Made by a program: the position numbers and the translations under genes. A DNA stretch of 64,000 bases from a virus. Location of the stretch: the IMG/VR virus record IMGVR_UViG_3300047315_000823; one strand, given 5' to 3'. Shown piece by piece: positions 6,625-31,953 of the stretch. The stretch's first letter is position 1. Each line of letters begins with the position of its first letter. The notes beneath the pieces are model-generated. The model saw only the letters and a program-made list of their open reading frames with translations, searched no databases and was not told the DNA's origin.

Positions 6625-6646
6625 CGTCACGTCCCCTCCTCCTCCG

Positions 6647-6666: not shown

Positions 6667-6679
6667 CGTCATGTCCGGG

Positions 6680-9143: not shown

Positions 9144-9203
9144 GTGATGTCCTTGGGTCGAGGGGCCGGCCGCATTGCCCGCGGCCGGCCTCCGATGTGC
9201 GGG

Positions 9204-10007: not shown

Positions 10008-10984
10008 TGCTGCTCCATGACGACGTTGAGGGTGCGGGTGTCTTCGCCCCGGTAGGGCTCGGGGTCGAGGTCGGGGTTGGCCTCGAGGGCGGCGGCCTTC
10101 CAGCTGATCTGGCCGCGCCGGGGGCGCCACGTGTAGGCGAGTTCGCCGCGGATGTAGACATCGGTGGCGTCGCCGGCGATCTGCTTGAGGTGGTTGTCGG
10201 CCTCGGTGAGCGCGCTTTCAGCGGCCTCGAGCTGGGCTTTGGCCAGGCGTCGCGCGGTCAGCCACTTCTCGACCTCGGCCGGGTCGGCGACTGCGTCGAT
10301 GCGCTTCGGGTTGGCGTGGATCCGGTCGAGGACGTCGCCGGTGGCGCGGGATCCGTCGAGAGGCGGCTGCGTGCCGGTCTCGACCCAGCCCCAGAATTCG
10401 GCGGCGATGGCGAGGAGGTCGTTGATGAGCTGCTCGTCGCGTTCGATGCGGTGGACGATGGTGCGTTGTCCGCCGATCAGGGCGGCGCTGTAGCCGAAGG
10501 ACCAGCCGGTGAGTAGGAGTTGCCACTGGGTCTGCACCTGCACGTCGACGGGCGTGTCGTCTTCCCAGTCGGCCAGCGCGTAGCTCGAGCGGGACTTCAG
10601 CTCGACGACGCCGGGCAGGCCTGCTTCCTCGGTGGTGCGGTCGAGGTTGACGATCGCCCACGGGATATCGGGCAGGCGCAGGGTGCCGGGGTTGTCGTAG
10701 ATCGGCAGGCCGGTCTTCTTGGTGAAGCGGCGGGCTGTGACGGGCTCGAGCTCGTGGCCCATCTCGGCGGCCTCGTCCAACGTGGGGTTATCGCGTCGGG
10801 GCACGTGCTGGCCGGTCTTCTTCAGCCAGATCTCGAGCGGGGACGTCCACTTGTTGAGGCCGCAGATCGCAGCGATGTCGGAGCCGCCAATGCCGGTCTT
10901 GCGGACGGCGTGCCACTCGTCGCGGGGCGCGTCGGGGCTGAGGGCGAGGACAGCGCCGGACGGATACGTGAGGGCGGTGGTCAC
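10004..10984 (-). CDS. YqaJ-like (lambda exo family) recombination exonuclease
   Basis: EWHAVRKTGIGGSDIAAI, GHELEP, NLDR, VELKS, QTQWQL. Confidence 0.92.
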   Translation of the reverse strand: MTTALTYPSGAVLALSPDAPRDEWHAVRKTGIGGSDIAAICGLNKWTSPLEIWLKKTGQHVPRRDNPTLDEAAEMGHELEPVTARRFTKKTGLPIYDNPGTLRLPDIPWAIVNLDRTTEEAGLPGVVELKSRSSYALADWEDDTPVDVQVQTQWQLLLTGWSFGYSAALIGGQRTIVHRIERDEQLINDLLAIAAEFWGWVETGTQPPLDGSRATGDVLDRIHANPKRIDAVADPAEVEKWLTARRLAKAQLEAAESALTEADNHLKQIAGDATDVYIRGELAYTWRPRRGQISWKAAALEANPDLDPEPYRGEDTRTLNVVMEQQ

Positions 10985-11232
10985 GCTGCCACCCCGCTCG
11001 CGATGGCCTGCAATTTGGCGAGCCCGTCCTCGTCGTAGCGGGCGAGGCGGAGGGCTTCGGAGAGTTCGGGGTAGGTCTCGCGGAGGATGGCTCGGTTGCG
11101 CATGTCGGCGCTCTCGATGGCGGCCATGAGGTGCTGGGTGAAAGTGCCGGGCTGGGCGCCACCGGTCCGGTCGTAGCGCCATAGGGCGTGACGTGCGGCT
11201 TCGGCGGTGACGGTGAGGCTGCTGGCATCCAT
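10981..11232 (-). CDS. Hypothetical protein
   Basis: 83 aa, co-oriented, GTGA overlap with the downstream gene. Confidence 0.6.
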   Translation of the reverse strand: MDASSLTVTAEAARHALWRYDRTGGAQPGTFTQHLMAAIESADMRNRAILRETYPELSEALRLARYDEDGLAKLQAIASGVAA

Positions 11233-11361
11233 GAGGTCTGCTTTCGGGTGTGCGGATGGGTGGGCGTCTCGCCTCGACCGGGGGGTGTGGTGCGGGGCGA
11301 GACGCCCTGGGTGGTCGCGGAGGTGGGGGGACTCGACGCGACCGGTCTGTGCGGTGGTGGA

Positions 11362-12540
11362 TCAGGCGGCGGAGTCGGCCGGCTGCGGCTTGACCGCCGC
11401 CCATTGGCCGGTCGCCTCGTCGAAGGCGACGTGCGAGTTCGAGGCGACCGTGAAGGTGATGTCGGCCAGGCGTGCGGCGTTCAGGGAGAGGGCGAGACGC
11501 TCCGCCCAAGCAGGCGCCGTCTTCGCGTTCTGCTCCACGACCGCCTTCTCGTAGTCGTCCTGCCACTGCTGCGGCTTGTGACCGGCCTCCTCGGCAGCGC
11601 ACCACGCCCACTCGCCGATCTCGCCGGAGTCGAGCTGCTCAGCAACGTCTGCGACGACGTCCTGCGCTTCACGCGGGTCGACGTTGTGGAGGGCGTCGAG
11701 GTAGCGGAAGGCCATCCAGTTCGCGACGGCGATGCGAATGTGGGCGTGCCACAGTTCGCGGTCGGTGTCGTAGTCGGTGACGTCGCGTGTGGACCGGAGG
11801 ACTTCCCGCAGGAGTGTCTCGCCGGTGTCCTCAACGCTCTTCGGTGCTTCGAAGCGAGAGCCCTCGGGCTTCGGCAGGCTGGCCATGTCGACGTCGGTGC
11901 CGCCCGCGGCGAGGGTCCACAGCCACAGGCTGTGAGCGGACTCGAACGTCTGCTCCTTGACCGGGCCGATGCTGCCGCCGTTGGACGGCATCTGCGCGCC
12001 GATGAAGTCTTCGCCGAAGAACAGGACCGCCTTCCGATCGGCAGTGACCCGGGTGCGAAGACTCTGGCCAGCCGCCGACCAACGCTTCAGGAAAGCAGAG
12101 TTGAGAGCGGGGAACGGTTCACCGTCGACGGTCTGGGCGGCGATCCCGCGGAGCAGTCCCCGCCAGTCCGGGAACTCCAGGCTCGGGTCGACGGTGATGG
12201 TGAGGTCGGCGAGCGGGCCGTCGAAGACGAGGCGGTTCTTGGCGGTGCTGACGGTGATGTGTTCGGCGCCCTTCATCGTGTCGATCCACTCGCGGAGGGT
12301 GCGAAGTTGGCCGGCGGGAATGAGGCGCGCCCACGGCTCCTGGTTCTGGTCGCCGTCGTCCAACCGGTAGCGGGCAGCGGCGACCGTGAACCGGTCGGTG
12401 GCGACGGCGTACAGGTACTGACTGTCGACGTCGAGGCGGATGCCGTGCAGCGGCTCCAGGTCCTCGTAGCCGATGTGCTCGACGGTCTTGTCGATGAGGA
12501 GCTTCAGCTGGTGGGCGTTGATGGTCGCGGACAAGGTCAT
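11362..12540 (-). CDS. DNA polymerase III beta-clamp-like protein with extra C-terminal domain
   Basis: LHGIRLD...YAVATDRFTVA and EFPDWR..L motifs of the DnaN fold in the first ~185 aa. Confidence 0.7.
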   Translation of the reverse strand: MTLSATINAHQLKLLIDKTVEHIGYEDLEPLHGIRLDVDSQYLYAVATDRFTVAAARYRLDDGDQNQEPWARLIPAGQLRTLREWIDTMKGAEHITVSTAKNRLVFDGPLADLTITVDPSLEFPDWRGLLRGIAAQTVDGEPFPALNSAFLKRWSAAGQSLRTRVTADRKAVLFFGEDFIGAQMPSNGGSIGPVKEQTFESAHSLWLWTLAAGGTDVDMASLPKPEGSRFEAPKSVEDTGETLLREVLRSTRDVTDYDTDRELWHAHIRIAVANWMAFRYLDALHNVDPREAQDVVADVAEQLDSGEIGEWAWCAAEEAGHKPQQWQDDYEKAVVEQNAKTAPAWAERLALSLNAARLADITFTVASNSHVAFDEATGQWAAVKPQPADSAA

Positions 12541-12643
12541 CTCCTGTGGGATCGTGGTGTCGATCCCCCGGGCGGTTCCGACGCTCGGGGGGTTTTGCGT
12601 TGGGCGCCGGCCGGGCGGGACGGGACACCGCCCGGCCGGACGA

Positions 12644-13156
12644 TCAGGGGGTGGCGGGCTCGGCGACGAGCAGCGGGATCGGCTGGGTGTCGGCGTTGGA
12701 GCCGTGGCCGGGGTTGGTGACGGCCAGCGGTGAGGCGCCGAGCCGGACCGGCGTGCCGGTCTCGAACCGGTCGGCCGGCGGTGTGGCGGGCGCCTGGTGG
12801 TGGGGCAGCGGCTTGACCGAGTTGACGTTCGCCTTGAAGGCGCGCAGTGCTCGGAGTTCGTCGGTCTGGCTGGCGAGCTGGCGCCGTGCCTCCCCTGCCT
12901 GCTGCTCGGCCTCGTCGTACCGTCCGGCCTTCGCGTACACGTCGGCCCGGATCTGCCGCGCCTCGTCGAGCTGCTCGCGGAGGCTGCGGATCGTGCGGGC
13001 CTGCCCGTCGAACCGGGCCTCCAACGCGGCGGCCTGCTCGGCGCGAGGCATCAAGCCGTGCACCTCGCGCTGCAGTTCACCGAGCAGGCGGTGCAGTTCG
13101 AGGCAGGACAAGCCGCGGTGGGAGATGACGCTGCGGACGGTGTCGACAGTGCTCAC
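12644..13156 (-). CDS. Coiled-coil hypothetical protein
   Basis: Heptad-rich; GTG start overlapping the upstream stop. Confidence 0.6.
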   Translation of the reverse strand: MSTVDTVRSVISHRGLSCLELHRLLGELQREVHGLMPRAEQAAALEARFDGQARTIRSLREQLDEARQIRADVYAKAGRYDEAEQQAGEARRQLASQTDELRALRAFKANVNSVKPLPHHQAPATPPADRFETGTPVRLGASPLAVTNPGHGSNADTQPIPLLVAEPATP

Positions 13157-13314
13157 GGCCGGTCTCCTTTCAGGTGCTGCTGCTGGTCCATGAGGGCGGC
13201 GAGCTCGGCCTGCCGTTCGGCGATGACGGCGGCGGCGAGGCGGATGTACAGGAGGTAGAGGGCGGTCGCGAACTCGTCGGCCGGCGACGGTGAGGCCGGG
13301 AGCGGGGCGGTCAC
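13153..13314 (-). CDS. Small hypothetical protein
   Basis: GTGA overlaps at both ends. Confidence 0.5.
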   Translation of the reverse strand: MTAPLPASPSPADEFATALYLLYIRLAAAVIAERQAELAALMDQQQHLKGDRP

Positions 13315-13571
13315 GGGGTGGCCTCCGGTAGCTGCACGTCCAGGACTTGCCGGTACATGGCCGCCGTGGTCGGCTTCGGCTCCGGTACGAGCGGCCCGTG
13401 CGCGGCGTACACGTCGGGCAGCGGCAGGATCCCGGCGCCGGCCTTGTCGGTGCGGAGCATCAGCGGGTCGCCGGACTCGGTGTGCTCGCACGTCCACAGC
13501 CAGCGCGAACCGTCCAACGCGACCTGCACGCGGTCGAGGTCGATCTCCGTACCGTCGAGGAGGACGGTCAT
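13311..13571 (-). CDS. Small Streptomyces-phage conserved protein
   Basis: DLDRVQVALDGSRW...PLPDVYAAHGPL; ATGA overlap. Confidence 0.6.
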   Translation of the reverse strand: MTVLLDGTEIDLDRVQVALDGSRWLWTCEHTESGDPLMLRTDKAGAGILPLPDVYAAHGPLVPEPKPTTAAMYRQVLDVQLPEATP

Positions 13572-13789
13572 GAGACGGCCGCCAGACTGCTCTCCAGCCG
13601 CGCGATGGACAGCGCCTGCTGGGCGACCTCGACGAGCTTGGCGAGGGTGGCCTCGTCGGCGCCGTCCAGGTTGAGGGCGAGAGCCGTACCGAGGCCGATG
13701 ATGGAGTGGCCGTTGTAGACCTCGAAGGTGATGAGGTCCGGCTGGTCGCCGAGGCTCATCGAGGCCTGGGACAGGCGGGGCTGGCTCAC
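13568..13789 (-). CDS. Hypothetical protein
   Basis: 73 aa, AGGAG RBS, overlaps both neighbours. Confidence 0.6.
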   Translation of the reverse strand: MSQPRLSQASMSLGDQPDLITFEVYNGHSIIGLGTALALNLDGADEATLAKLVEVAQQALSIARLESSLAAVS

Positions 13790-14097
13790 GACATCTCCTT
13801 GAGGGCTTCACGGGCGGCACGGTTGGCGGTCTCGCGGGCGGCCATCTCGGCAGCCCAGGCCGGGTAGTCAGCGAGCTGGGTGACTGCGGCCTTGGGGTGG
13901 GTGACCAGCCACTCGTCGAGGTGGTAGGCGATCTGGTCCGACGGGGAGTGGGTGTGCTCGGCCGCGTCGGCGAGGAGCTGGCAGGCCTGCTGCCGGGCGA
14001 CCGTGGCACGGATGTCGGCGGCCAGCCGGGACAGCGGCACGTCAACGTCGGCCGGACGTGGGGCCACGGTCTGGAAGCGCTTCGGGGTGAAGGTCAT
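13786..14097 (-). CDS. Hypothetical protein
   Basis: Start MTFTPK with ATGA overlap. Confidence 0.6.
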   Translation of the reverse strand: MTFTPKRFQTVAPRPADVDVPLSRLAADIRATVARQQACQLLADAAEHTHSPSDQIAYHLDEWLVTHPKAAVTQLADYPAWAAEMAARETANRAAREALKEMS

Positions 14098-14240
14098 GAC
14101 GCGCCCCCAATCGGCATCGGCAGGGCGCCAGCGGCGGCGACCGTCGCGTCCAGGTCCGGCTCCGCTCCGTGCACCGGGCAGCTGGCGTCCCAGTCGCAGT
14201 CCGTCGTGGCATCGACGGGGTTCCATCCGCAGGCGGTCAT
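14094..14240 (-). CDS. Small hypothetical protein
   Basis: MTACGW...CPVHG; ATGA overlap, GGAGG RBS. Confidence 0.5.
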   Translation of the reverse strand: MTACGWNPVDATTDCDWDASCPVHGAEPDLDATVAAAGALPMPIGGAS

Positions 14241-14623
14241 GAGGCCACCTCCGTCCGCTGCTCGCCGGGGTGCGTCTGGTTGCGGACGGGCTTCCACGGC
14301 GGCTTCCCGGATCCGGGGCACGGCTCGGACCAGTTCTTGCCGTTCCAGCGGTGGTTGCCCATGACGCCCTCGCGGGTCATGGCCCGGTCCTTGCAGCAGT
14401 GCTTGCACCAACCGCGCGGGCGGACCGGCTCGGGGACGGCGGGGTAGACGATCCGGTAGCAGGGGTGGCCGATGGTGCGGCGCTTCTCGCCGTCGATGCG
14501 GAAGCGGAGGTAGCCGCCGCCCGCGCCGATGATCGTGGCGGGCTTGCCGTCGTACTCGATGCGCATGCCGTGACGGGCGGGGACGTCGTACTGGCGGCGG
14601 ATCCACTCCATCGTGCTGGTCAC
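14237..14623 (-). CDS. Hypothetical protein (SH3-like N-terminus plus Zn ribbon)
   Basis: YDVPARHGMRIEYDGKPATI; CKHC...H...CPGSG. Confidence 0.65.
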   Translation of the reverse strand: MTSTMEWIRRQYDVPARHGMRIEYDGKPATIIGAGGGYLRFRIDGEKRRTIGHPCYRIVYPAVPEPVRPRGWCKHCCKDRAMTREGVMGNHRWNGKNWSEPCPGSGKPPWKPVRNQTHPGEQRTEVAS

Positions 14624-15351
14624 CGGAGCACCGCCTTCTTGGCCGGGTCCCAGGTGCAGGACTCCTGCCCCTTCTGCTTCACGTCGCGGCAGATCCCGGG
14701 CTGGTGAACGGGCGAGCGGCGGCAGTAGTGGTCGAGGTGCTCCGGGCAGTGCGAGCCGCAGACCGTCGCGTCGTACTGGCGGATGCCCCAGACGATTGCG
14801 CGGCAGGCGAAGAGGTACTCCCAGGAGAAGTCGTCGAAGGACTGCTCCCACGTGTCGGGGATCCTGAGCCGGAAGTCGCCGTGGCTGAACGAGGCGACCG
14901 CGTACTCGGCGGTCCCGCGGTACTCAAGGCTGTGGTCTTCGGAGTGGAGGATCTGCTGGCCGACCGCCGCAACGGCGCCCGGGTAGCAAGCCTCGGCCCC
15001 GACTGCTTCCTCCATCACCCAGGTGCGGAACTTCTCCTCCGACCAGTCCTTGACGTCGCCTCGGCCGGCAGTGACCTTCTCCTGCCAGTAACCGGGGTTG
15101 ATGTCGCCGTGGTTGGACTCACGGAACAGGCGGAACAGGTCGACCGTCGGGTGGATGGAGAAGCCGAAGCTGATCCCGTCACCACGGACGAAGAGGTTGT
15201 TCGGCCAGGTCACCAGGTCGAAGCGGTAGAAGCTGCCCTTCGGGTCCGTGAAGACCAGGTGTCGGTACATGCCCTCGTCCTTCAGGACGGTCAGCTCGTG
15301 GTTGCGGGTCTCGGCCTTGAAGCGGGCCAGAGAGGAGGCGTAGTCGCTCAT
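14620..15351 (-). CDS. Conserved phage protein
   Basis: HELTVLKDEGMYRHL, FDLVTWP, INPGYWQEK, YLFACRAIVWGI, recognised from phage early regions. Confidence 0.7.
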   Translation of the reverse strand: MSDYASSLARFKAETRNHELTVLKDEGMYRHLVFTDPKGSFYRFDLVTWPNNLFVRGDGISFGFSIHPTVDLFRLFRESNHGDINPGYWQEKVTAGRGDVKDWSEEKFRTWVMEEAVGAEACYPGAVAAVGQQILHSEDHSLEYRGTAEYAVASFSHGDFRLRIPDTWEQSFDDFSWEYLFACRAIVWGIRQYDATVCGSHCPEHLDHYCRRSPVHQPGICRDVKQKGQESCTWDPAKKAVLR

Positions 15352-16253
15352 GCCGCACCGCCGTTGTGGCGCTGCTGCGGCAGGCGGACAACCTGCGCAC
15401 CCGGAATCGCTGGCCGGTTCCGCGACGGCAGACCATCGCGTTCCAGCGCGGCCACGAGATCCAGTTCGGCCTCGCCAGGGATTACGAGGGTCTGCTGGCG
15501 GCGCACCCGGTTCCGGTCCAACTTGGGCGCCAGGTAGAAGTAGCGCTTGCCCTTCGCCGTCGGATGCGCGTGCTCCGGGCCGTCCTTCCACTCGTTCTTC
15601 CGCTCGTCCCAGCGGGTGTTCCGCTGGTCGATCAGGTAGTCCTTGCGGTAGAGGTGCTCGAAGAAGTCCCGCTCCCCCACCTCGGGGAAGTGCGTCTTGT
15701 GGAACACGGTCGGCGTGATGCCCGGGTTGGCTTCGTAGTCGTCGGCGACGCGGGCCTTCGGGGAGAGGCGGGAGTTCGTTTCGACGAGCTCCGTGTTCTC
15801 CGCCCGGATGTCTTCCAACTCGCGGGCCTGGCGGGCGGCGAGCTCCAGTGCGCCGGCGAATGTCGTCGGGACCATGAACTGGTGGGCCTGCGCGACCTCG
15901 GCCTCGCGGGTCTTCGCCGCGAAGTAGGTCTGCGCGGCAGCCACTTCCGGCTTCCGCGGGTCACCGTTCATGGCAGTCAGGTACGCGGCGTATCGGGTCA
16001 GCCGGTAGTCGTTGCCGGGTCGGCCACCCTGGCGGGAGGGGTTCTTAGGGATGACCCTGAAAACCTCCAACGGGTCCAGGCCCGTGTTGCGAGCGGCAGC
16101 CATGGCGCGCTCGATTACCGGCTCGAACTGCTGCCAGCGGGGGTAAGCCATCTGCGGCATCAGCTCGCGGGCGAACCAGTGCTCGCCTTCATCGTCCAGG
16201 TGCCTGGTGCTGTCGAACGGGGATGATCCGTCCGATGGGATGATGGAGGACAA
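15348..16253 (-). CDS. Phage antirepressor (Bro-N/DinD-like plus KilAC-like)
   Basis: WFARELM...Y..W..F..VIERA, DYRLTRYAAYLTAMNGDPRKPEVAAAQTYFA, PTTFAGALELAA, PKARVAD. Confidence 0.8.
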   Translation of the reverse strand: MSSIIPSDGSSPFDSTRHLDDEGEHWFARELMPQMAYPRWQQFEPVIERAMAAARNTGLDPLEVFRVIPKNPSRQGGRPGNDYRLTRYAAYLTAMNGDPRKPEVAAAQTYFAAKTREAEVAQAHQFMVPTTFAGALELAARQARELEDIRAENTELVETNSRLSPKARVADDYEANPGITPTVFHKTHFPEVGERDFFEHLYRKDYLIDQRNTRWDERKNEWKDGPEHAHPTAKGKRYFYLAPKLDRNRVRRQQTLVIPGEAELDLVAALERDGLPSRNRPAIPGAQVVRLPQQRHNGGAA

Positions 16254-18205: not shown

Positions 18206-19594
18206 GTGGCGGGGTACATCGAAGACCGCTGGATGACGAGGAAAGCGGATCCAGCGACCGGCAAGAAGCGTCGGACCGCACGCTGGGGGCAGGGGAAGCG
18301 TTGGCGGGTCGCCGGCGTCCCTGGCGTGCGGGACCGGTCCTTCACCAACCTCAAGGGCCCTGACGGGGCTGAGAAGTGGCTAGCCGACTCGCAGACGGAT
18401 ACGAGCCGCGGCCACTTCTACGATCCACGCGACGGCAACATCACGCTGCGGGAGTACGTCGAGCAGACGTGGTGGCCGACGCTGCGGAAGGCGCCCGGCA
18501 CCAAGCAGTCGATGAAGCCTCGGGTCTTCAATCACATCCTTCCCCACGTGGGGCATCTGTCGCTGAACCGGATCGGGCACGACGAGATCCGGGTCTGGCT
18601 CACCCGGGTCGAGCAGGACATCGACGTGAACACGGTGCGCACGACGTGGCGCCATTTCTCGACGATCATGCAGGCGGCGCACAAGGCCAAGAGGATTGCC
18701 GAGAACCCGTTCAGGGATGAGGACTTGTCGGCGCCGGCGGCGCCTCCGTCCAAGGCGAAGGCGTGGCCCAGGGAGACAGCTGCTGCGGTGCGGGCCGAGT
18801 TGGGTCCCCGGTACGGGATCCTTGTGGACCTCGCTACCGGGGCCGGGCTGCGGCAGGGGGAGTGCTTCGGCTTCTCGCCGGACGACATCGACGGCGACGA
18901 GATCCATGTGACCCGTCAGATCGTGCGGATCAATAGCCGTCTGGCGTTCGCGCCTCCGAAGCGCGGCAAGCTCCGCGACGCACCCTGCCCTCCGGAACTG
19001 GCCCGCGCCGTCAAGGAGTACGCGAATGTCTTCCCGACGGTCGAGGTGACGCTGCCCTGGGTGGACCCGGACCGGCCGAACCTGGAGTGGGACAAGCGTC
19101 CCCTGCGGACTGTACGTCTCCTTGTGACCACACCCAGGACCGGCGGAGTCAGCGGCGGCGCACTGAACCGGGCGACGTGGGACGACAAGGCGTGGAAGCC
19201 GGCGCTCGCCCGTGCGGGCGTCATCCCGGAGCCCGAGGTCGAGTACGTGCAGGCGAACGGGAAGAAGCCGTGGCGCCGGGTGGCGTGGCGGATGCCGCGG
19301 GAGGACGGCTTCCACGTCACGCGGCATACGTTCGCTAGCATCGTGCTGTCGGAGGGTGAGACAATCACTCAGCTGGCTGCGTGGCTCGGTCACTCGGATC
19401 CGGCGTTCACGCTGAGGACTTACGTGCACTTCATGCCGAAGTCCGGGAAGCGGGCGCTGGCTGCGCTCGGCTCGTGGATGTCCCCAGGTGGGGGCGGGAC
19501 CCGAGCCGCTGAGGCCGATCAGGCTGTTGAGATCTCTCCCGGTTCTGATTCTCCCCAGATTCTCCCCAGCGAAGATCTGGATCAAGGAATCTAG
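18206..19594 (+). CDS. int: Tyrosine integrase
   Basis: GLRQGE (R), PPKRG (K), FHVTRHTFAS (HxxR), LGHSDPAFTLRTYVH (H, Y). Confidence 0.95.
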   Translation: MAGYIEDRWMTRKADPATGKKRRTARWGQGKRWRVAGVPGVRDRSFTNLKGPDGAEKWLADSQTDTSRGHFYDPRDGNITLREYVEQTWWPTLRKAPGTKQSMKPRVFNHILPHVGHLSLNRIGHDEIRVWLTRVEQDIDVNTVRTTWRHFSTIMQAAHKAKRIAENPFRDEDLSAPAAPPSKAKAWPRETAAAVRAELGPRYGILVDLATGAGLRQGECFGFSPDDIDGDEIHVTRQIVRINSRLAFAPPKRGKLRDAPCPPELARAVKEYANVFPTVEVTLPWVDPDRPNLEWDKRPLRTVRLLVTTPRTGGVSGGALNRATWDDKAWKPALARAGVIPEPEVEYVQANGKKPWRRVAWRMPREDGFHVTRHTFASIVLSEGETITQLAAWLGHSDPAFTLRTYVHFMPKSGKRALAALGSWMSPGGGGTRAAEADQAVEISPGSDSPQILPSEDLDQGI

Positions 19595-24344: not shown

Positions 24345-24896
24345 TCAGCCGCTCCCCAGCTTGGCGGCCAACTGGTAGGCCGGGTGATTGTCGAGGCGGT
24401 TCGGGTTGATGGCGCGCGGCCTAGCCCATCCGTGGAACGGGTCCCAGTACCGCAGGTGGATTCCGAGGATCTGTGCTGGCGGCCTTTCGCGGTACTTCCG
24501 GAAGAGGCCGTTGTCGTGCGGCTCGCGCCTGTTGCAGCTTCGGCAGAGCATGCCGCGTATCAGCCCGGTGTCATGGTCGTGGTCGTCCACCAGGCGCACG
24601 TCGCAGTAGCCGCAGACAGCGCACCGGCCAGCGTGCCATGCCCTGAAGACCGAGCGATCGTCGTCGCCCTCGGAGATCACCATCTCCCAGGACCAGCAGA
24701 CCGGATCACGGGCAGCGAGCCGTTCGACGTGGTGGCGCTCCGACTCGGCGAAGCCGACGTCCCGAACTTCGCGCAGATTCACGGGCAGGTGCCGACCACA
24801 GAGTTGTGGGTCGCCCTCCAAGCCGTGCGGCCAGCGACTGGCCTGCGCCTTGCAGGGGCGCCCAGTCGTGGTCGTCGCTGTGCAGACGGGGTTCAC
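24345..24896 (-). CDS. Endonuclease VII domain protein
   Basis: CAVCG...DHDHDTGLIRGMLCRSCN; GTGA overlap with the recombinase stop. Confidence 0.85.
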   Translation of the reverse strand: MNPVCTATTTTGRPCKAQASRWPHGLEGDPQLCGRHLPVNLREVRDVGFAESERHHVERLAARDPVCWSWEMVISEGDDDRSVFRAWHAGRCAVCGYCDVRLVDDHDHDTGLIRGMLCRSCNRREPHDNGLFRKYRERPPAQILGIHLRYWDPFHGWARPRAINPNRLDNHPAYQLAAKLGSG

Positions 24897-25921
24897 AGTC
24901 CGATGTCCTCCGATGCGGCGTCGGTCCACTTGTCGGCTTCGCGAATGTAGCCCCAGAAGGCTGGGCTATTCTCTGCGTGACCGGACTGAGCGCGGATCTT
25001 CTCCTCGCGCTTGCCTGCCTTGCGGCTCGTAGTGATGAACCCGGCTCGCATGCTGTGACCAGTCAATCGGACGGCTACGCCTGCGCGTTCGGCGTTGCGG
25101 GTGATGATCTCGCGGACGGCTTCCGGGGAGAGCGCGTGCTCACCGAGATGGCCCCAGACGTCCACGGGGAGGAAGGCCGGCCCCGCGGTGATGCCTGCGG
25201 TGGCGCGCCAGTTGAGCCAGGCGCGGACGGGGCAGGTGTCGACGTTCTTGCCGTAGCTGACGACGACGTCTCGGGGCGGGCGTCCTTTCACGGCGGGGAC
25301 GTGGACTTCGAGTCCTTGGCTGACGTGGACGATGGCTTCGGCTCGCAGCTCGGCGACTTCGGCCGAGCGTCCGGCGATGCCGAAGGCCATGAGCCAGAGG
25401 GCGCGGTCGCGGAGTCCGGTGAGCCCGTCGGCGACGGCGGCGTTCATCTGGCGCAGTTGCTCGGGGGTGACCGCTGCGGCTTTGCCTCGTCCGCGCGCCA
25501 TGCGTTCGGGGTCGTTCTTCATTGGCTTGAGGGCTTGTCGCGCGGCGACGGTGGCGGCCTTGGGGACTTCGACGCCGAGGCCGCGCGCGGTGACGGTGAC
25601 CCCGGTGATCCTGCGGTCGATTGACGTGGGCGCGGCGAGCTTGATGGTGTCGAGCCATACGACGAACCCGACAAGCGTGCCCTTGGTGACGTCGGTCAAC
25701 GCGAGCGGGTGGCCGGTCTGTTCGGCGAGCCAATCGTGGAACTCGGTCCAGAGGTTCCAGTCGTTGGCATAGCCGCGCTTCGTGTTGTTGGGGCGGATGG
25801 CGTCGAGGTGCTGTTCGGCTGCCTGCTCCATCGCGGCGAGGACCGCGAGCGTCGCAGCGTCACGGACGGCGGGGGTGGCGTCCGGCTGCTGCGGGACGAG
25901 GGCGGTGGAGTCGTCCGTCAC
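24893..25921 (-). CDS. Second tyrosine recombinase (Cre/XerC-like)
   Basis: NTKRGYANDW SAM-like domain, RDRAL...GRSAEV, GHSMRAG, SGH...FWGYI. Confidence 0.9.
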   Translation of the reverse strand: MTDDSTALVPQQPDATPAVRDAATLAVLAAMEQAAEQHLDAIRPNNTKRGYANDWNLWTEFHDWLAEQTGHPLALTDVTKGTLVGFVVWLDTIKLAAPTSIDRRITGVTVTARGLGVEVPKAATVAARQALKPMKNDPERMARGRGKAAAVTPEQLRQMNAAVADGLTGLRDRALWLMAFGIAGRSAEVAELRAEAIVHVSQGLEVHVPAVKGRPPRDVVVSYGKNVDTCPVRAWLNWRATAGITAGPAFLPVDVWGHLGEHALSPEAVREIITRNAERAGVAVRLTGHSMRAGFITTSRKAGKREEKIRAQSGHAENSPAFWGYIREADKWTDAASEDIGL

Positions 25922-26352
25922 TGCCCGCTCCCTACAGGCCACTCGTTGCCGCCGGGATCGATCCACTCCAGAGGCAGACCGGCCTCCTTGCGCATCTCGT
26001 TACGTCGCACCAACGCATCCATTTCTTCGCCGCGCTGGCGAGCAGACTCTCGCATGCGCTCGCGCACCACGCCGTTGGCGACGTCCAGCGCGGCGTCAGC
26101 AATGCAGTCAACGCACGCCCAGTCGGTGACGTGCTCCAGGTGGTAGGCGGCTGGCAGCTCCTGGAAGGAGCGGAACAGCAGGCGGGAGGCGCTGACGACA
26201 CAGGTGCCGAGCGCGGGCCCCCGACCGCAGAGGCAGTCTCCGCCCAGCTCGGCGACAGTCTGCGGAATGTTGACGGAGGTGACCTGACCTATCCCGGCAT
26301 CGCGGCGAGCGCGACGGCGAGCCAACAGCTCGTCTGAGGGGTTTTGAGGCAT
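25918..26352 (-). CDS. Cys/His-rich hypothetical protein
   Basis: CLC...C...H..H..CVDC; TACAAT 5 nt before the ATG; GTGA overlap with the recombinase. Confidence 0.65.
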   Translation of the reverse strand: MPQNPSDELLARRRARRDAGIGQVTSVNIPQTVAELGGDCLCGRGPALGTCVVSASRLLFRSFQELPAAYHLEHVTDWACVDCIADAALDVANGVVRERMRESARQRGEEMDALVRRNEMRKEAGLPLEWIDPGGNEWPVGSGQ

Positions 26353-26742: not shown

Positions 26743-27018
26743 ATGAGCGCTTACCGAGGGACCGTCATCCTTCAACTCGCAGACTCGAAGCCCGCGGCAG
26801 CAGCCGACCTGACGAAGGAGGAGGCTGGGTCGTGGGCCGGAACTCTGATCTTTCCGACCGAGGCCCGCACGCCGGAGCTCCTCAACCTGACCGAGGGCCA
26901 GCTGTGGGTCCATGGCCGCGAGGGCGCCTTCGTCCGGCCAGACACCTCGGATTGGGTCAGCTCCCCCACGGGTCAGTTCCGGATCCGCATTGAGGGCAAC
27001 GGCGACGCCCCGTTCTGA
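26743..27018 (+). CDS. Small beta-rich protein (DUF4873-like)
   Basis: YRGTVIL...W.G.L...G.G.APF; TAGCCT 6 nt before the ATG. Confidence 0.6.
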   Translation: MSAYRGTVILQLADSKPAAAADLTKEEAGSWAGTLIFPTEARTPELLNLTEGQLWVHGREGAFVRPDTSDWVSSPTGQFRIRIEGNGDAPF

Positions 27019-27066
27019 CACGGCGAAGCGCCCCACTCCTCGCTGCCGTGGCGATGAGCGGGGCGC
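27017..27066. terminator. Hairpin between convergent genes; starts with copy 1 of an 18-bp direct repeat
   Basis: GCGCCCC (27028-34) pairs with GGGGCGC (27060-66). Confidence 0.6.
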
Positions 27067-27074
27067 TGTAGCAG

Positions 27075-27728
27075 CTACGCAGCTGACTGGCTGACCTGCT
27101 GCCAGGGTGTCGGCCCAGTCTGTGACGCCCAGCCTGCGAGGGCCTGCTCATCGTAGAGGCGGATGCGCTGCGTGGCGGCGTAGCCGGCAGCCTGCCGAGT
27201 GAAGGCACTCGTGGTAACCACGACGGGGATCTGGGCGTGATGCACGGCGTAGCAGGTGCCTCCGAACCGCTGCATCTCCGGGGAGCCCACTTTGTGGGTA
27301 GGCCCGTAGCGCTTGCACTGGATCACGATCCGGCGGCCGTCCGGGGCCGTGGCGACGACGTCAGCTCCGAGGTCTCCGGCGCCGCCGCTCACCTCGACGT
27401 TGGTGCAGCCGTCTCGCTGGCACAGGTAGGCGATGGCGTGCTCAAACTCTTTGGGGCCGAGGACGTGGTAGCGGGCAATCTCGCGTGACTGCACCTCGCG
27501 GACCTGTGCCTGACGGGCATTCTCAAGGCGGCGCTGTTCGGCCTTGCGGGCGCGGCGCACAACGTAGATCCCACCGGCGACGGATGCGGCCAGGAGTAGC
27601 GGAACCCCCAGGCTTGGGACATGTTTGACCAGTTGGAGGAGAACCGCAAGGGGCACGAGTACCGCCCAGATGCCGCGGATGATGACGGACTGACAGGACA
27701 GACCGCGTCTGGTGCGGCGTGGCGGCAT
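27075..27728 (-). CDS. Mrr-like (PD-(D/E)xK) restriction endonuclease with N-terminal TM segments
   Basis: EFEHAIA, GGAGDLGADVV, IVIQCKRY, VVVTTSAFT; hydrophobic N-terminus. Confidence 0.85.
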   Translation of the reverse strand: MPPRRTRRGLSCQSVIIRGIWAVLVPLAVLLQLVKHVPSLGVPLLLAASVAGGIYVVRRARKAEQRRLENARQAQVREVQSREIARYHVLGPKEFEHAIAYLCQRDGCTNVEVSGGAGDLGADVVATAPDGRRIVIQCKRYGPTHKVGSPEMQRFGGTCYAVHHAQIPVVVTTSAFTRQAAGYAATQRIRLYDEQALAGWASQTGPTPWQQVSQSAA

Positions 27729-27872
27729 GAGTTCCCCCGAGAGCGTGATCGTGGCGGAAGCGTAGCCGTACTGCGTTATTCCGGTGGCCAGTTGGCGGGC
27801 ACCACCGCCCGGACACTACGATTCGCCCCCACCCCCTGCCGGTCGGCAGAGGATGGGGGCGTTAGTGGCAGG

Positions 27873-29537
27873 TCAGGTGGCCTTCGAGACCCAAGGCCAG
27901 GTCGCGTCGCGCCCGGCTTCAAGGAGCGGCACCAGGCGGAAGGCGGTATCCGTCAGACCGCCGAGCGTGTGTCGGCCTGCGGCCCCGGAGGGCATGGCAC
28001 CAGGCTTGTAGCCGGCCAGGTTCCACATGTAGACCGGCACGTGCTTCGGTACGAGGTTGTCGATCTGCGTCTCCCGCATCCCGCCGAAGCGTTCCATGTT
28101 GGACGGGAGCCAGCCGGGCCGGGTCTGTTCGTCGGTGACGACGATGACGCGGTCGTGCCGGTCGTAGTGCTTCTTGACGGCGGTCGGGATGTCGGTGCCG
28201 TCGTTCTGGCCGTACTGCTCGATGAGTTTGAGGACGCTGCCACCCTTGGGGACGTCTAGCCGCTTGGAGCTGCCGCCGAACTCAACGAGCGTCGGCGCCT
28301 CGGCGCGCATCGCGAGTGCGGAGCCGAAGACCGCGGCCTGTTCGGCAAGCGTGATGTCCGAGCTGTTCGGCGTGGAGAAGCGTAGGCCGGGGAACATCGA
28401 CGGGGAACGGTCGACGAGGATCAGCGTCCGACCGGACAGGCGGGGCACGTTGGCGAGGGAGTGGCCGAGGGCCTGCTCGAGCGCGTGAGCCCACCGCAGG
28501 GACGGGGCGTGCTTATAGGCGGCCCACCAGCGGAACGGGAACATGCGGGAGGCGTTCACTGCGGCCGGGTCGGTGAAGCGGGCGCAGATCTGGGCGGCCA
28601 CCGTATTGGATACGCCGACCTCGTCGAAGTTCCGGAGGTTCCTGGCGAGCGCCATCAGGCCCATGGACGGGATGATCGCCTCCCAGGCCGCCTTGTCCAT
28701 CGGTCCCTGGAGCCAGCCGGCCAGCGCCTCCCAGGTAATGCCTGCAGCCGCGAGCCGCTTGGCACTGTCGGGGGCCGTTACGACCGCGCGCCGCTCAGCG
28801 ACCGGTATGGCCATCAGCTCACGGTGCGCGGTCAGCGTCCGGTTCGACGTCGGCGGGATGGCGCTGTCGGGGTTGTGGCGTCGGTCGAGCGCGTACTGGA
28901 ACAGCTCGCCCTGCCATGGCTTGCCCGGGTCGGGTGCGGCGTGGACGAGGTTGAGGATGTCGCCGAAGCGGTAGCCCTTGGACGCGGTGTCGTACTTGAG
29001 CAGGCTTCGCTCGGTGTAGAGGTGCTGGACTGCGTCGGCGATGCCGCGCTTCACCGGCTTCGGCAGGCGGCGGCCGTAGCGGGAGGTCCAGTAGCCGAGC
29101 AACTCGCCAGGCTCGTCGGGACGCTGGAGGACGGCGTCGATGACGCGGCGGTTGAAGCCCGCGTCGAACGTTCCGTCGGTGGGGGCGGCGGCGTTGCGTG
29201 TCGCATCGAGTCGCGCCCATACGAACTCTGCGGCGCCGACCAGGGCCGCGATTCGCATGTTGCCTTCGCCTCGCAGCCAGCCGAGCAGGCCGACCGTCCA
29301 CTCCGGGTCCTCGACGGCCAGCTTGCGGACGAGCTGCGTGTACCGGTCGTCGCGGTCCCCGCCCTTCTCGTAGAAGGCGTCCTGGCCAACGAAGTTGGAC
29401 ACTGCCAGCAGGAAGAGTTCGGAGCGTGCGTCCCGGAGATGCCCAGTGGCGCCTTCGTGGGTGACGGTCCGCTCCCCGGTAGTGGTCACTGGCGAATGGA
29501 CGGCGGGACGGGTGCCGCGCTGGTTGAACCTGGACAT
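27873..29537 (-). CDS. rsr: Ro60/TROVE-domain RNA-binding protein with C-terminal vWA domain
   Basis: ELFLLAVSNF, LPKPVKRGIADA, KYD, ALARNLRN, SRMFPFR, ILVDRSPSM (MIDAS), IVVTDEQ, WNLAGY; true start MSRFN at 29537. Confidence 0.92.
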   Translation of the reverse strand: MSRFNQRGTRPAVHSPVTTTGERTVTHEGATGHLRDARSELFLLAVSNFVGQDAFYEKGGDRDDRYTQLVRKLAVEDPEWTVGLLGWLRGEGNMRIAALVGAAEFVWARLDATRNAAAPTDGTFDAGFNRRVIDAVLQRPDEPGELLGYWTSRYGRRLPKPVKRGIADAVQHLYTERSLLKYDTASKGYRFGDILNLVHAAPDPGKPWQGELFQYALDRRHNPDSAIPPTSNRTLTAHRELMAIPVAERRAVVTAPDSAKRLAAAGITWEALAGWLQGPMDKAAWEAIIPSMGLMALARNLRNFDEVGVSNTVAAQICARFTDPAAVNASRMFPFRWWAAYKHAPSLRWAHALEQALGHSLANVPRLSGRTLILVDRSPSMFPGLRFSTPNSSDITLAEQAAVFGSALAMRAEAPTLVEFGGSSKRLDVPKGGSVLKLIEQYGQNDGTDIPTAVKKHYDRHDRVIVVTDEQTRPGWLPSNMERFGGMRETQIDNLVPKHVPVYMWNLAGYKPGAMPSGAAGRHTLGGLTDTAFRLVPLLEAGRDATWPWVSKAT

Positions 29538-29538
29538 G

Positions 29539-29561
29539 AAAAAGCCCCTCGCGTGGAGGGG
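29539..29561 (-). terminator. Intrinsic terminator immediately before the rsr ATG, sequestering its SD
   Basis: CCCCTC-CACGC-GAGGGG-C-TTTTT-C-ATG. Confidence 0.7.
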
Positions 29562-29573
29562 AGGTGCAGCAGT

Positions 29574-29717
29574 GGGGTGCCCGAGATCAAGGTCGGTGCG
29601 GGTGACAAGGCGCTCTGCCGATTGAGCTACAGAAGCCGCTAAGCCTCCGGCGGGACTCGAACCCGCAACCACCCCATTAGCAGTGGAAGTAACCCGTACC
29701 TGCGCACCGGGCACCCC
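29574..29717 (-). ncRNA. yrlA: YrlA-type Y RNA (tRNA-mimic domain on a Ro-binding stem)
   Basis: Terminal stem GGGGTGCCCG/CGGGCACCCC, GGTGCGCAG/CTTGATCTC Ro-site-like helix, T arm GCGGG-TTCGAGT-CCCGC, closed 7-bp acceptor stem, D arm GCTC-AATCGGCA-GAGC. Confidence 0.85.
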
Positions 29718-29719
29718 CG

Positions 29720-29802
29720 ATGCTGTGCCTCCCGAGATCAAGACGGCTGCGGGTCTGTTTCGCCAAAGGAAGGAACCGCAGCCTGCGCACCGGGAGGTGC
29801 AT
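29720..29802 (-). ncRNA. Second, shorter Y RNA (YrlB-like)
   Basis: CCTCCCG/CGGGAGG stem, the same CCGGTGCGCAGG...CTTGATCTCGGG motif, internal GGCTGCGG/CCGCAGCC stem. Confidence 0.75.
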
Positions 29803-29871
29803 GAAGTTGTGTTACCACCATACCCGCATCAACCAGTAACGTGTCTACCCGTTACCGCAACTGCCCCACCG

Positions 29872-29924
29872 GACACGGCGAAGCGCCCCCGCTGTCACCC
29901 CGGCAAGGGGGAGCAGCGGGGGCG
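29872..29924. terminator. End-of-lysis-operon hairpin; starts with copy 2 of the 18-bp direct repeat
   Basis: CGCCCCCGCTG (29884-94) pairs with CAGCGGGGGCG (29914-24). Confidence 0.65.
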
Positions 29925-31024: not shown

Positions 31025-31372
31025 TTAGACGGGCTGCGCGAGTTGTCTGCAGCCGATGACGGTGCCAGTGGCGTTCCGTACCTCGCGGTACGGGACGAGG
31101 AGGTCGTCGCGTCCGCGCGTCAGGAGCGACAGGGCGACGGGCAGGGACACAATGAGCTGCACGCCGTCGCGTTTGGGCGGGAGGTCGTGGGCATGGCTGT
31201 ACACGACAAGTTCGATGCCGTCCGGCTGGGTGCCGAGTTCGACCATGGCCAACCGGGCGGGCTTGGCCTCGGGTTCGATGGCCTCGCGCAGGTGCGGTTC
31301 GAGGTCGTCAGATCCGTCCTCGCGCGCGTTCATGTAGAGGCGGATCGGGTGCGGAGTGAGGTTGAGGATCAC
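31025..31372 (-). CDS. NLTPH-motif small protein (possible ring-nuclease family)
   Basis: NLTPHPI, IVSLPVA, RDDLLVP, VRNATGTVIGCR; GTGA overlap with the exonuclease. Confidence 0.7.
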   Translation of the reverse strand: MILNLTPHPIRLYMNAREDGSDDLEPHLREAIEPEAKPARLAMVELGTQPDGIELVVYSHAHDLPPKRDGVQLIVSLPVALSLLTRGRDDLLVPYREVRNATGTVIGCRQLAQPV

Positions 31373-31953
31373 GCCGCCTCCCCTGCCGCGCGCCCGACGA
31401 GGAGACGTCGGACGGTCTGGTTGTGGCGGGCATCGGCGAGCGCGTTGTGCACTCCGCCGTCCTGCTTCGGCAGGTCGTCCCAGCCGAGGCCCTGGCGTCG
31501 AGCCTCCTGCTGGATGTCGTTGGTGAACATCGGAACACCCTCGGGCAGGTCGATCATTCGGCCCCAGAGCTGTGCGAGGCAGACATGGTCGTAGGCGCCG
31601 TAGTCGGCCCAGAGCTGCACGTCAGGCCCAGTGGCGCGGATGAAGTCCATGACCTCGTCGGCGATCCGCTCGATGGGTTTCACGGCCGGGTCGAGGTAGT
31701 TGAACAGCCAGGACTGCGGCATGTGGTTGCGCCAGTCCCCGTGTGGTTGCGGCAGGTGCGGGATCACGTTCTCCATCAGCCACTTGTGCTTGCGCACCCG
31801 GCGCCGGAACCGCCAGCCCTTCCAGCCTCGCGCGGCGAGGAGCCCGTTGACGGCGTAGTACTCGCGCCCGTCCTCCGCCTTCATGCCGATAGAGATCGGC
31901 TCGATGCGGACACCGTCCTCCAGGAACTCCCAGTCGTAGTCGACCGCGGTCAT
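31369..31953 (-). CDS. DEDDh 3'-5' exoribonuclease, RNase AS (Rv2179c)-like
   Basis: YDWEFLEDG..IEPISIG, WLMENVIPHL, WADYGAYDHVCLAQLWGRMIDLP, HNALADARH. Confidence 0.85.
   Translation of the reverse strand: MTAVDYDWEFLEDGVRIEPISIGMKAEDGREYYAVNGLLAARGWKGWRFRRRVRKHKWLMENVIPHLPQPHGDWRNHMPQSWLFNYLDPAVKPIERIADEVMDFIRATGPDVQLWADYGAYDHVCLAQLWGRMIDLPEGVPMFTNDIQQEARRQGLGWDDLPKQDGGVHNALADARHNQTVRRLLVGRAAGEAA

What the first reader, a model, noticed from the sequence alone, without database searches (positions are those of the whole stretch)
27017..29889. Phage-borne Ro60 + two Y RNAs + Mrr-like nuclease cassette
Seen in sequence: the minus strand carries two tandem ncRNAs that share a CCGGTGCGCAGG...CTTGATCTCGGG helix closed by 7-10-bp stems, then a full TROVE-vWA gene, then a membrane-anchored Mrr-like nuclease. 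Established: Ro60 (Rsr) binds Y RNAs; in Deinococcus the complex scaffolds PNPase, and in Salmonella rsr-yrlBA sits with the RtcB/RtcA RNA-repair genes. Here no rtcB/rtcA/rtcR is adjacent, the Y RNAs precede rsr, and the module is a phage moron. Inference: a self-contained RNP that either counters host tRNA/RNA-cleaving defences or acts as prophage-encoded defence together with the nuclease.
Basis: partly seen in the sequence, partly recalled or inferred. Interest (0 to 1): 0.85.

Follow-up and report, generated by a model that had tools for sequence, protein, structure and literature searches.

The report
Phage Ro60 with two Y RNAs
A temperate Streptomyces-type phage carries a self-contained Ro60 protein gene preceded by two partner Y RNAs, a module already known from bacteria and phages, and the nuclease gene next to it is an unrelated, swappable neighbour.

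Summary
On the minus strand lie a hairpin Y RNA (YrlB-like, 29797-29728) and a tRNA-mimic Y RNA (YrlA-like, 29718-29574). They are followed by a full TROVE+vWA Ro60 gene (29537-27873) and a gene for a Mrr_cat nuclease with two hydrophobic N-terminal segments (27728-27075).

In 27 related phage or prophage loci the two RNAs are conserved, with strong compensatory base changes. This is a known kind of module. Y RNAs beside Ro60 were reported in more than 250 bacteria and phages in 2014. Two Y RNAs upstream of rsr, without rtcBA, is the arrangement described for Mycobacterium smegmatis. A phage Ro60 with two upstream Y RNAs was solved in 2025.

- Only 1 of 29 related Ro60 loci has a Mrr relative nearby, and there it lies on the other side.
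- Most Mrr relatives lie without Ro60.
- No co-location was seen in 201 Streptomyces genomes.
- Each gene has its own terminator.

No RNA data were available. This scan has noted phage Ro60 with Y RNAs many times on other DNA. Verdict: a new member of a known kind, of modest interest.

The parts
29872..29924 (-). Terminator hairpin that ends the late (tail) operon. Its tail is copy 1 of the 18-nt repeat GGGGCGCTTCGCCGTGTC (29889-29872).
   Evidence: Inverted repeat I7, 18-nt arms, 83% complementary. Repeat count. Similar GGGGCG + TTYCGYCGTGTC tails precede the module in related loci.
29817..29847 (-). Promoter-like site of the module: TAGACA, 19 nt, TATGGT. It ends about 6 nt before the conserved leader CACAACTTCATG.
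   Evidence: Read from the sequence. The same geometry (TGGACR-N19-TAYNGT) occurs at the same place in part of the related loci. This is an inference, and the simple sigma-70 scan did not call it.
29728..29797 (-). Y RNA 1, YrlB-like. It has a 7-8 bp closing stem, the conserved bulged helix CGGUGCGCAGG / CUUGAUCUCGG, a short upper stem and a pyrimidine-rich loop.
   Evidence: Fold. Helices 1-3 of the consensus structure: helix 1 is invariant, helices 2-3 have compensatory changes.
29574..29718 (-). Y RNA 2, YrlA-like. It has a 10 bp closing stem and the same bulged helix, then a tRNA-like body: hairpin 29688-29672 with the 7-nt loop CUGCUAA, T arm 29666-29650, AS stem 29649-29630 and D arm 29627-29612.
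   Evidence: Rfam YrlA match 29673-29609, 37.8 bits, E = 8e-7. ARAGORN miscalls 29715-29641 as tRNA-Ser(gct). Helices 5-9 are 96-100% paired, and 6 of the 7 AS pairs have compensatory changes.
29535..29561 (-). Hairpin CCCCTCC-N5-GAGGGG followed by CTTTTTC and the ATG. It looks like an intrinsic terminator, and its 3' arm is the Shine-Dalgarno sequence of rsr.
   Evidence: Terminator-like call. The stem is kept with a variable loop in all 27 phage-type loci printed.
27873..29537 (-). rsr, encoding Ro60 (554 aa): TROVE/HEAT part plus a vWA domain with intact MIDAS residues.
   Evidence: It is 59-81% identical to 30-odd prophage and viral-contig copies, and 64-67% identical to chromosomal Streptomyces rsr.
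27809..27861 (-). Terminator hairpin after rsr, with a diverged third copy of the GGGGCG...GTGTCCGG tail.
   Evidence: Read from the sequence. It separates rsr from the next gene by 144 nt.
27075..27728 (-). Separate gene (not part of the RNP): a Mrr_cat (PD-(D/E)xK) nuclease-like protein with two N-terminal hydrophobic segments.
   Evidence: Pfam. PADLOC gives domain-level hits only. Hydropathy. 916 relatives, mostly Streptomyces 'restriction endonuclease'. DNA homology to other genomes stops at the edges of the gene.
27017..27070 (-). Terminator-like hairpin after the Mrr-like gene. Its tail is copy 2 of the 18-nt repeat (27034-27017).
   Evidence: (D2: 36 nt, 78%).

Best explanation
Region 29847-27809 is one self-contained transcription unit for a Ro60 and Y RNA ribonucleoprotein, carried as cargo by a temperate Streptomyces-type phage.

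Proposed mechanism:
1. A promoter-like site drives a short leader, a hairpin Y RNA (YrlB-like) and a tRNA-mimic Y RNA (YrlA-like).
2. A conserved hairpin follows. It looks like an intrinsic terminator and also buries the ribosome-binding site of rsr. Most transcripts should therefore stop there, giving Y RNAs in excess, and read-through gives Ro60.
3. Both RNAs carry the same invariant bulged helix near their paired ends, which is where Ro60 is expected to bind.
4. The tRNA-like body of YrlA is expected to tether a host enzyme that recognises tRNA-like shapes. PNPase is the most likely partner, as shown for Deinococcus and, in vitro, for Thermus phage phiLo. Structured or damaged RNAs would then be fed to an exoribonuclease.

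What is shown and what is inferred: the anatomy, conservation, covariation and protein family are shown. Binding, the partner enzyme and the biological role are inferred.

My odds for the role are:
- re-directing host RNA decay during infection or induction, about 50%;
- counter-defence, about 25%;
- stress fitness of the lysogen, about 25%.

The Mrr-like gene downstream is a different, independently mobile cargo gene that occupies a variable slot.
For: Protein identity.

RNA identity and conservation. Consensus pairs are 98.7% paired, 18 pairs have compensatory changes, and 0 of 500 shuffles reach the observed values.

The same RNA-RNA-hairpin-rsr order holds in 27 phage-type loci, and the same motifs occur in nearly all of 100 loci.

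The phage-type Ro60 proteins form their own supported group (99*), apart from the chromosomal Streptomyces clade (100*).

Published precedent:
- YrlA and YrlB upstream of Rsr on one precursor in M. smegmatis, and Y RNAs near Ro60 in more than 250 bacteria and phages (PMC4201824).
- phiLo Ro60 binds two upstream Y-like RNAs and forms a complex with host PNPase (PMC12135203).
- A Ro60-like phage protein counters the ppl defence (10.1101/2024.10.10.617714).

Independence of the Mrr gene.
Against: - No transcript data. No RNA run holding this DNA was listed.
- The YrlA match is below Rfam's gathering score. So are the homologues in a Streptomyces chromosome and in two Gordonia phages, at 44-47 bits.
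- The promoter is a weak consensus match with a 19-nt spacer, and the scan tool did not call it.
- Binding to Ro60 and to PNPase was not tested.
- In this phage lineage and a decayed relative, rsr and the Mrr gene do lie side by side. Lineage-specific cooperation is therefore not excluded.
Confidence: 0.85

Rival explanations
1. One reading: Ro60, the two Y RNAs and the membrane-anchored Mrr-like nuclease work together as one defence or counter-defence system.
For: - The genes are adjacent on the same strand.
- The whole block is bracketed by an exact 18-nt repeat.
- The same pair is seen in the same phage from several metagenome samples.
- A decayed relative in Streptomyces triticiradicis also has the pair.
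- One other viral contig has a Mrr relative just upstream of the Y RNAs (L089/L109).
Against: - 28 of 29 related Ro60 loci lack a Mrr relative within 6 kb.
- The gene after rsr differs in size, strand and family from locus to locus.
- Mrr relatives mostly lie without Ro60.
- No co-location was seen among the listed matches in 201 Streptomyces genomes, where 100 have Ro60 and 121 have a Mrr relative.
- rsr and the Mrr gene each have a terminator hairpin.
- In the relic, Ro60 is truncated and the Y RNAs are gone while the Mrr gene is intact.
- The 18-nt repeat is the tail of a terminator type that also occurs, diverged, between the two genes.
Confidence: 0.07
2. The tRNA-like stretch is a true tRNA-Ser(GCU) gene, and the rest are ordinary terminators or attenuators rather than Y RNAs.
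For: - ARAGORN calls tRNA-Ser(gct) at 29715-29641.
- GenBank records of related phages annotate a tRNA just upstream of their Ro-like gene.
Against: - Rfam's tRNA model gives no match there. The only clan hit is tRNA-Sec at 19.4 bits, E = 0.3.
- The arms come in the permuted order T, AS, D that is typical of YrlA.
- The D arm lies outside the ARAGORN call.
- The flanks form a covarying long stem with the Ro-type helix.
- The annotated tRNA-Ser(gct) of phage Alone3 is likewise not matched by Rfam's tRNA model at E <= 1e-4, whereas 12 neighbouring tRNAs are.
Confidence: 0.03
3. The unit acts mainly as a decoy. The tRNA-like body of YrlA, including its anticodon-loop-like hairpin (CUGCUAA), soaks up host tRNA-cleaving defence nucleases, with Ro60 only stabilising the RNA.
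For: - The hairpin 29688-29672 has a 7-nt loop CUG(C/U)UAA in 21 of 27 loci. Its stem differs between locus groups while keeping the pairing: UUCCA/UGGGG versus UUCUC/GAGAG.
- A Ro60-like phage protein is reported to counter a defence system.
Against: - There are no data on cleavage.
- Chen et al. read this hairpin as a variable-arm equivalent.
- The alignment of the hairpin is imperfect, so I did not count its pairs formally.
- Chromosomal Streptomyces rsr loci have similar RNAs, which argues for a housekeeping or stress role.
Confidence: 0.1

Closest known systems
Mycobacterium smegmatis Rsr with YrlA and YrlB (Chen et al. 2014, PMC4201824)
   Same: Both are actinobacterial. Two Y RNAs lie upstream of rsr on the same strand. 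One has a tRNA-like T/AS/D body and the other is a long hairpin with a pyrimidine-rich loop. No rtcBA is adjacent.
   Different: Here the hairpin RNA comes first and YrlA lies next to rsr. The unit is carried by a temperate phage. The RNAs score below Rfam's YrlA gathering score.
Thermus phage phiLo Ro60 with Yrl1 and Yrl2 (PMC12135203; PDB 9KOP, 9L5Y)
   Same: Both are phage-encoded Ro60 genes with two Y-like RNAs upstream. This is the best solved-structure match, over the full length (E = 8e-27). Host PNPase is the proposed partner.
   Different: The sequence identity is low. As described, the phiLo RNAs are stem-bulge-stem RNAs with a CGAA motif, whereas here one RNA has a full tRNA-like body. 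The host phylum differs.
'Ro-like RNA binding protein' genes of sequenced actinophages (Gordonia phages VanLee and Trax; Streptomyces phages Frankenweenie, Alone3 and others)
   Same: The protein family is the same, with 65-72% DNA identity over parts of the gene. A YrlA-like element lies just upstream.
   Different: Three of those four are 114-200 kb genomes and two carry tRNA arrays. Here the unit sits in a 60-kb-class temperate phage between the lysis genes and recombinases. In GenBank the RNAs are unannotated, or labelled tRNA or CDS.
Salmonella rsr-yrlBA-rtcBA operon (PMC7790460)
   Same: Both have Ro60 plus YrlA and YrlB.
   Different: No RtcB, RtcA or RtcR is found within 6 kb here. The Y RNAs lie upstream of rsr rather than downstream.
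Mrr / type IV restriction nucleases (Pfam Mrr_cat)
   Same: The catalytic domain matches over its full length, and PADLOC mREase_IV matches at E = 1e-10.
   Different: The protein is only 217 aa. It has two hydrophobic N-terminal segments instead of a DNA-recognition domain. It does not match any complete defence-system model.

Membership tests
Ro60 / Rsr (TROVE) proteins | TROVE domain above Pfam's cut-off | tested here: met
   PF05731, 43.9 bits against a cut-off of 23, E = 2.4e-11.
Ro60 / Rsr (TROVE) proteins | C-terminal vWA domain with MIDAS residues (DxSxS, T, D) | tested here: met
   D376-R-S378-P-S380, T448 and D469, read from the translation. This region aligns to the vWA part of phiLo Ro60.
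Ro60 / Rsr (TROVE) proteins | Full-length similarity to a Ro60 of solved structure | tested here: met
   9L5Y and 9KOP: residues 24-545 align to 21-488 of 500, E = 8e-27.
Ro60 / Rsr (TROVE) proteins | Ring-shaped HEAT-repeat fold that binds Y RNA on its outer surface | not tested
   I made no structure prediction, because the sequence evidence was sufficient. Binding needs an experiment.
YrlA (Rfam RF02553) | Encoded next to rsr | tested here: met
   It ends 37 nt before the rsr start codon. The position is the same in 27 related loci.
YrlA (Rfam RF02553) | tRNA-like body with T arm, AS stem and D arm in that order | tested here: met
   Alignment to model positions 24-84. The helices covary.
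YrlA (Rfam RF02553) | Long stem formed by the 5' and 3' ends that carries the Ro60-binding helix | tested here: met
   Helices 5 and 6 have 19 pairs and are 100% paired. The lower part is invariant. That this helix is the binding site is an inference.
YrlA (Rfam RF02553) | Score at or above Rfam's gathering score | tested here: not met
   37.8 bits against 69. Homologues beside rsr in a Streptomyces chromosome and in Gordonia phages also reach only 44-47 bits, so the model seems poorly fitted to Actinobacteria.
YrlB-type Y RNA | [quoted passage not shown] | tested here: met
   Fold. Helices 1-3. The loop region UACUUCUUU is conserved. No curated model exists to score it.
Rsr-RtcBA RNA-repair operon | rtcB, rtcA or rtcR adjacent to rsr | tested here: not met
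   None of the neighbouring genes matches them in Pfam, PHROGs or NCBIfam. The precomputed Pfam hits on contigs of the same phage show none either.
Mrr_cat nucleases | Mrr catalytic domain | tested here: met
   PF04471, 92.2 bits, profile positions 5-114 of 115. Candidate catalytic residues are D123 and Q137-x-K139, read from the sequence. The motif is recalled from memory.
Known multi-gene defence systems with a Mrr-type nuclease | Match to a complete system model, or a conserved partner gene | tested here: not met
   PADLOC gives domain-level hits only: mREase_IV, the ZorD C-terminus, PDC-S02 and LmuA. No partner gene is conserved.
Moron (independent cargo unit in a phage) | Own promoter and terminator, present in some but not all related phages | tested here: inconclusive
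   Terminators flank the unit. The promoter is only a consensus-like site. Streptomyces phage Kromp shares capsid genes at 71% but is not among the Ro60 hits. No transcript data.

The most novel reading that the evidence does not exclude
Prophage-borne Ro60 and Y RNA units of Streptomyces phages form a distinct, long-standing lineage that is switched on at DNA damage, that is, at prophage induction. In 9 related loci the unit's promoter fits the actinobacterial PafBC damage-response motif at a fixed position. The units would then re-programme host RNA decay, or blunt RNA- or tRNA-targeting defences, with output set by a terminator hairpin that also hides the rsr ribosome-binding site. The window's own promoter is of a different type, so this may not apply to it.
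Probability: 0.15. Interest if true: 0.55.

Novelty: new member of a known kind. Interest (0 to 1): 0.25.

Why it matters
It adds a well-defined example: a temperate actinophage that carries a complete Ro60 and Y RNA unit in its cargo region. About 30 relatives give clean covariation support for both RNAs.

It also shows that these RNAs escape current annotation. Rfam's YrlA model scores them below threshold. tRNA finders and GenBank records label them as tRNA or as a CDS.

What phages gain from Ro60 remains an open question, and a temperate Streptomyces phage would be a tractable system for asking it. However, this locus does not open a new kind of mechanism, and the suggested nuclease partnership does not hold.

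Tried and rejected
- Rfam at gathering threshold over the whole window gave no match. Only the permissive scan found YrlA.
- Megablast of the window against sequenced phages gave almost nothing, one capsid-region hit to phage Kromp. No close sequenced relative exists in that collection.
- No whole genome is held for the window.
- PADLOC and NCBIfam gave nothing for Ro60 or for the small neighbouring ORFs.
- The search for RNA sequencing runs listed none. The DNA is held only in rhizosphere and soil metagenome runs. I therefore did not use read laying, and expression is untested.
- Supplementary tables of Chen et al. 2014 are not held. I could not check which phages they listed.
- I did not run complex prediction for Ro60 with the Mrr-like protein, because the comparative data give no reason to claim that they bind.
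- I did not build a covariance model of my own. Motif counts and the 27-locus alignment were sufficient.
- I considered whether the 18-nt repeat marks an insertion of the whole block. A third, diverged copy after rsr, and similar tails in relatives, make 'a shared terminator type' the simpler reading.
- I considered a PafBC-type promoter for the window itself. It does not fit.
- One possible extra Ro60-Mrr adjacency in a fragmented genome (G176) could not be resolved, because the two genes lie on different contigs.


Full report
**What is there**

The window is a temperate phage, assembled from rhizosphere metagenomes. Most of its genes are on the minus strand.
- The late operon holds terminase (ending at 54115), portal, capsid, tape measure (43025-37734), minor tail proteins, a peptidase and an endolysin (33679-31950).
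- An RNase AS-like exonuclease (31953-31369) and small tail-associated genes follow, down to 29935.
- Early genes lie at 1-16253: replication initiator, RecE/RecT and RusA-like. An integrase lies at 18206-19594 and a second tyrosine recombinase at 25966-24893.
- The finding lies between the end of the late operon and this second recombinase.

**The parts on the minus strand**
- 29924-29884: a hairpin that ends the late operon.
- 29847-29817: a promoter-like site, TAGACA-N19-TATGGT.
- 29797-29728: Y RNA 1.
- 29718-29574: Y RNA 2.
- 29561-29545: a hairpin followed by CTTTTTC and the ATG.
- 29537-27873: rsr.
- 27861-27824: a terminator hairpin.
- 27728-27075: the Mrr-like gene, after a 144-nt gap.
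- About 27070-27017: another hairpin.

**The RNAs**

Y1 folds alone into a hairpin, at -34.1 kcal/mol and z = -2.46. The lowest-energy fold of Y2 alone is not significant (z = -0.72), so its structure rests on comparison between loci.

The two RNAs share both strands of a bulged helix, seen as repeats D4 and D5.

The centre of Y2 matches Rfam YrlA positions 24-84, which are the T arm, AS stem and D arm, at 37.8 bits and E = 8e-7. That is under the gathering score of 69, so the default scan was empty. ARAGORN reads part of Y2 as tRNA-Ser(gct). Rfam's tRNA model does not support this.

**Comparison with related loci**

I collected 103 loci that encode relatives of this Ro60. In the 27 non-redundant phage-type loci that I aligned, both RNAs are present in the same order and at the same spacing.
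- RNAalifold gives 56 consensus pairs, of which 18 have compensatory changes.
- Counted against controls, 98.7% of cells are paired, against 92.0% in shuffles and 37-50% when the partners are slid.
- There are 75 double-change cells against 18 in shuffles, and 0 of 500 shuffles reach any observed measure.
- The lower helices of both RNAs never vary. This fits sequence-specific recognition by a protein but does not prove it.
- The AS stem has compensatory changes in 6 of its 7 pairs.

**The protein**

Pfam TROVE scores above its cut-off. The best solved-structure match, over the full length, is Ro60 of Thermus phage phiLo, at E = 8e-27. The vWA MIDAS residues are intact.

In a quick tree, the phage and prophage copies form a supported group (99*), distinct from a tight clade of chromosomal Streptomyces rsr (100*). 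The window's nearest relative is an IMG/VR contig at 82% identity. About half of 201 sampled Streptomyces species have a Ro60 gene.

**What is already known**
- Chen et al. 2014 reported Y RNAs next to Ro60 in more than 250 bacteria and phages. In M. smegmatis they found YrlA and YrlB upstream of Rsr on a single precursor, with one tRNA-like RNA and one long hairpin with a pyrimidine-rich loop (PMC4201824).
- The phiLo study found two Y-like RNAs upstream of a phage Ro60, showed binding, and obtained a complex with host PNPase. It suggested a counter-defence role (PMC12135203).
- A preprint reports that a Ro60-like protein of phage Bas63 counters the ppl defence.
- A review notes TROVE proteins with a tRNA-like partner in jumbo phages.
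- Sequenced Gordonia and Streptomyces phages already carry genes annotated 'Ro-like RNA binding protein'.

This scan has also noted phage Ro60 with partner RNAs many times on other DNA.

**The nuclease**

The 217-aa protein has a full Mrr_cat domain and two hydrophobic N-terminal segments. It belongs to a large family annotated 'restriction endonuclease' in Streptomyces. Several tests speak against a link to Ro60.
- tblastn with this protein finds a relative within 6 kb of Ro60 in only one of 29 non-redundant phage-type loci (L089), and there it is upstream of the Y RNAs.
- The ORFs after rsr differ from locus to locus in size, strand and family. A Pfam census of 80 of them shows integrases, Ku, DUF6233, resolvases and others. 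Mrr_cat is not among the 25 most frequent of 43 families.
- Of nine viral contigs with Mrr relatives, only the L089 contig has Ro60. One further contig has a weak 25% match to part of the protein.
- In 201 Streptomyces genomes, 100 have Ro60 and 121 have a Mrr relative. None of the listed matches lie near each other. Fifteen matches were not listed, and one fragmented genome is unresolved.
- DNA similarity to other genomes stops at the borders of the Mrr gene.
- In a decayed prophage of S. triticiradicis the Mrr gene is intact, while Ro60 has lost its 5' part and the Y RNAs.

A small gene on the opposite strand (26743-27018) recurs downstream of rsr in several relatives, with different genes in between. 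The Mrr gene therefore occupies a variable cargo slot.

**The 18-nt repeat**

The repeat is real. It is the tail of two terminator hairpins. A third, diverged copy follows the rsr terminator. Relatives have similar tails before the module, and sometimes directly after rsr. I read it as a shared terminator type rather than a mark that the three genes form one unit.

**How it most likely works**

See the Best explanation section. The anatomy and conservation are shown. The binding, the partner enzyme and the benefit to the phage are inferred from published work on relatives. No RNA data could be obtained.

**Verdict**

The Ro60 and Y RNA reading is right but not new. The nuclease partnership is not supported. 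This is a new member of a known kind, of modest interest.

Noticed in passing
L001, L002, L005, L007, L084, L090, L096, L098, L099: 301-307 nt upstream of rsr (locus positions about 5694-5700): In 9 non-redundant related prophage loci the promoter of the Y RNA and rsr unit reads TGTC(A/G)(G/C)-N10-TA-N3-T at a fixed position. This fits the published PafBC (DNA-damage response) motif tGTCgg(N10)tA(N3)T (PMC8635444). The background rate is 0.0055 per 700 nt. The motif is absent from the window and from the chromosomal-type loci.
   Followed up: partly
window 29561-29535, and the same place in all 27 phage-type loci: A conserved hairpin CCCCTCC-loop-GAGGGG plus a T-run lies directly before the rsr start codon. 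It looks like an intrinsic terminator, and its 3' arm is the ribosome-binding site. Chromosomal Streptomyces loci instead have CCTCCCTCC ... GAATTCGGGGGGAATTC before the ATG, another possible anti-SD/SD pair.
   Followed up: partly
L123 4551-4624 (Streptomyces phage Alone3); L124 4182-4298 (Gordonia phage Trax); L121 5093-5169 (Gordonia phage VanLee): GenBank annotation misses these RNAs. Alone3's 'tRNA-Ser(gct)' next to its Ro-like gene is not matched by Rfam's tRNA model, whereas 12 neighbouring tRNAs are. In Trax a YrlA match lies under the 'hypothetical protein' gene 93. In VanLee a YrlA match is unannotated.
   Followed up: partly
window 29688-29672: The hairpin before the T arm has a 7-nt loop CUG(C/U)UAA, like an anticodon loop, in 21 of 27 loci. 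Two stem versions keep the pairing: UUCCA/UGGGG and UUCUC/GAGAG. The alignment has a one-column shift there, so I did not count the pairs formally.
   Followed up: partly
L012-L080 (chromosomal Streptomyces rsr loci), for example L028 5603-5673 and 5825-5931: Chromosomal loci carry two YrlA-like modules and a hairpin Y RNA between them, that is three RNAs upstream of rsr instead of two.
   Followed up: partly
window 31369-31953: An Rv2179c-like (RNase AS-like) 3'-5' exoribonuclease gene lies 1.4 kb upstream of the Y RNA unit. Homologues sit 2-3 kb upstream of rsr in 7 related loci. This may be no more than shared phage backbone. I did not test whether it works with Ro60.
   Followed up: no
L127 (Streptomyces triticiradicis WBKG01000042) 5982-8651: A decayed relative of this phage region: Ro60 lacking its first ~220 residues and the Y RNAs, an extra 202-aa gene, an intact Mrr-like gene (89% identical), then an integrase. 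A TrwC relaxase gene lies upstream.
   Followed up: partly
L-series loci, ORFs within 3 kb downstream of rsr: Ku (4 loci) and DUF6233 (4 loci) recur among the variable genes that follow rsr in related prophages.
   Followed up: no
window 18206-19594 and 24893-25966: The phage encodes two tyrosine recombinases. The second is chained with an endonuclease VII/HNH gene (24345-24929).
   Followed up: no
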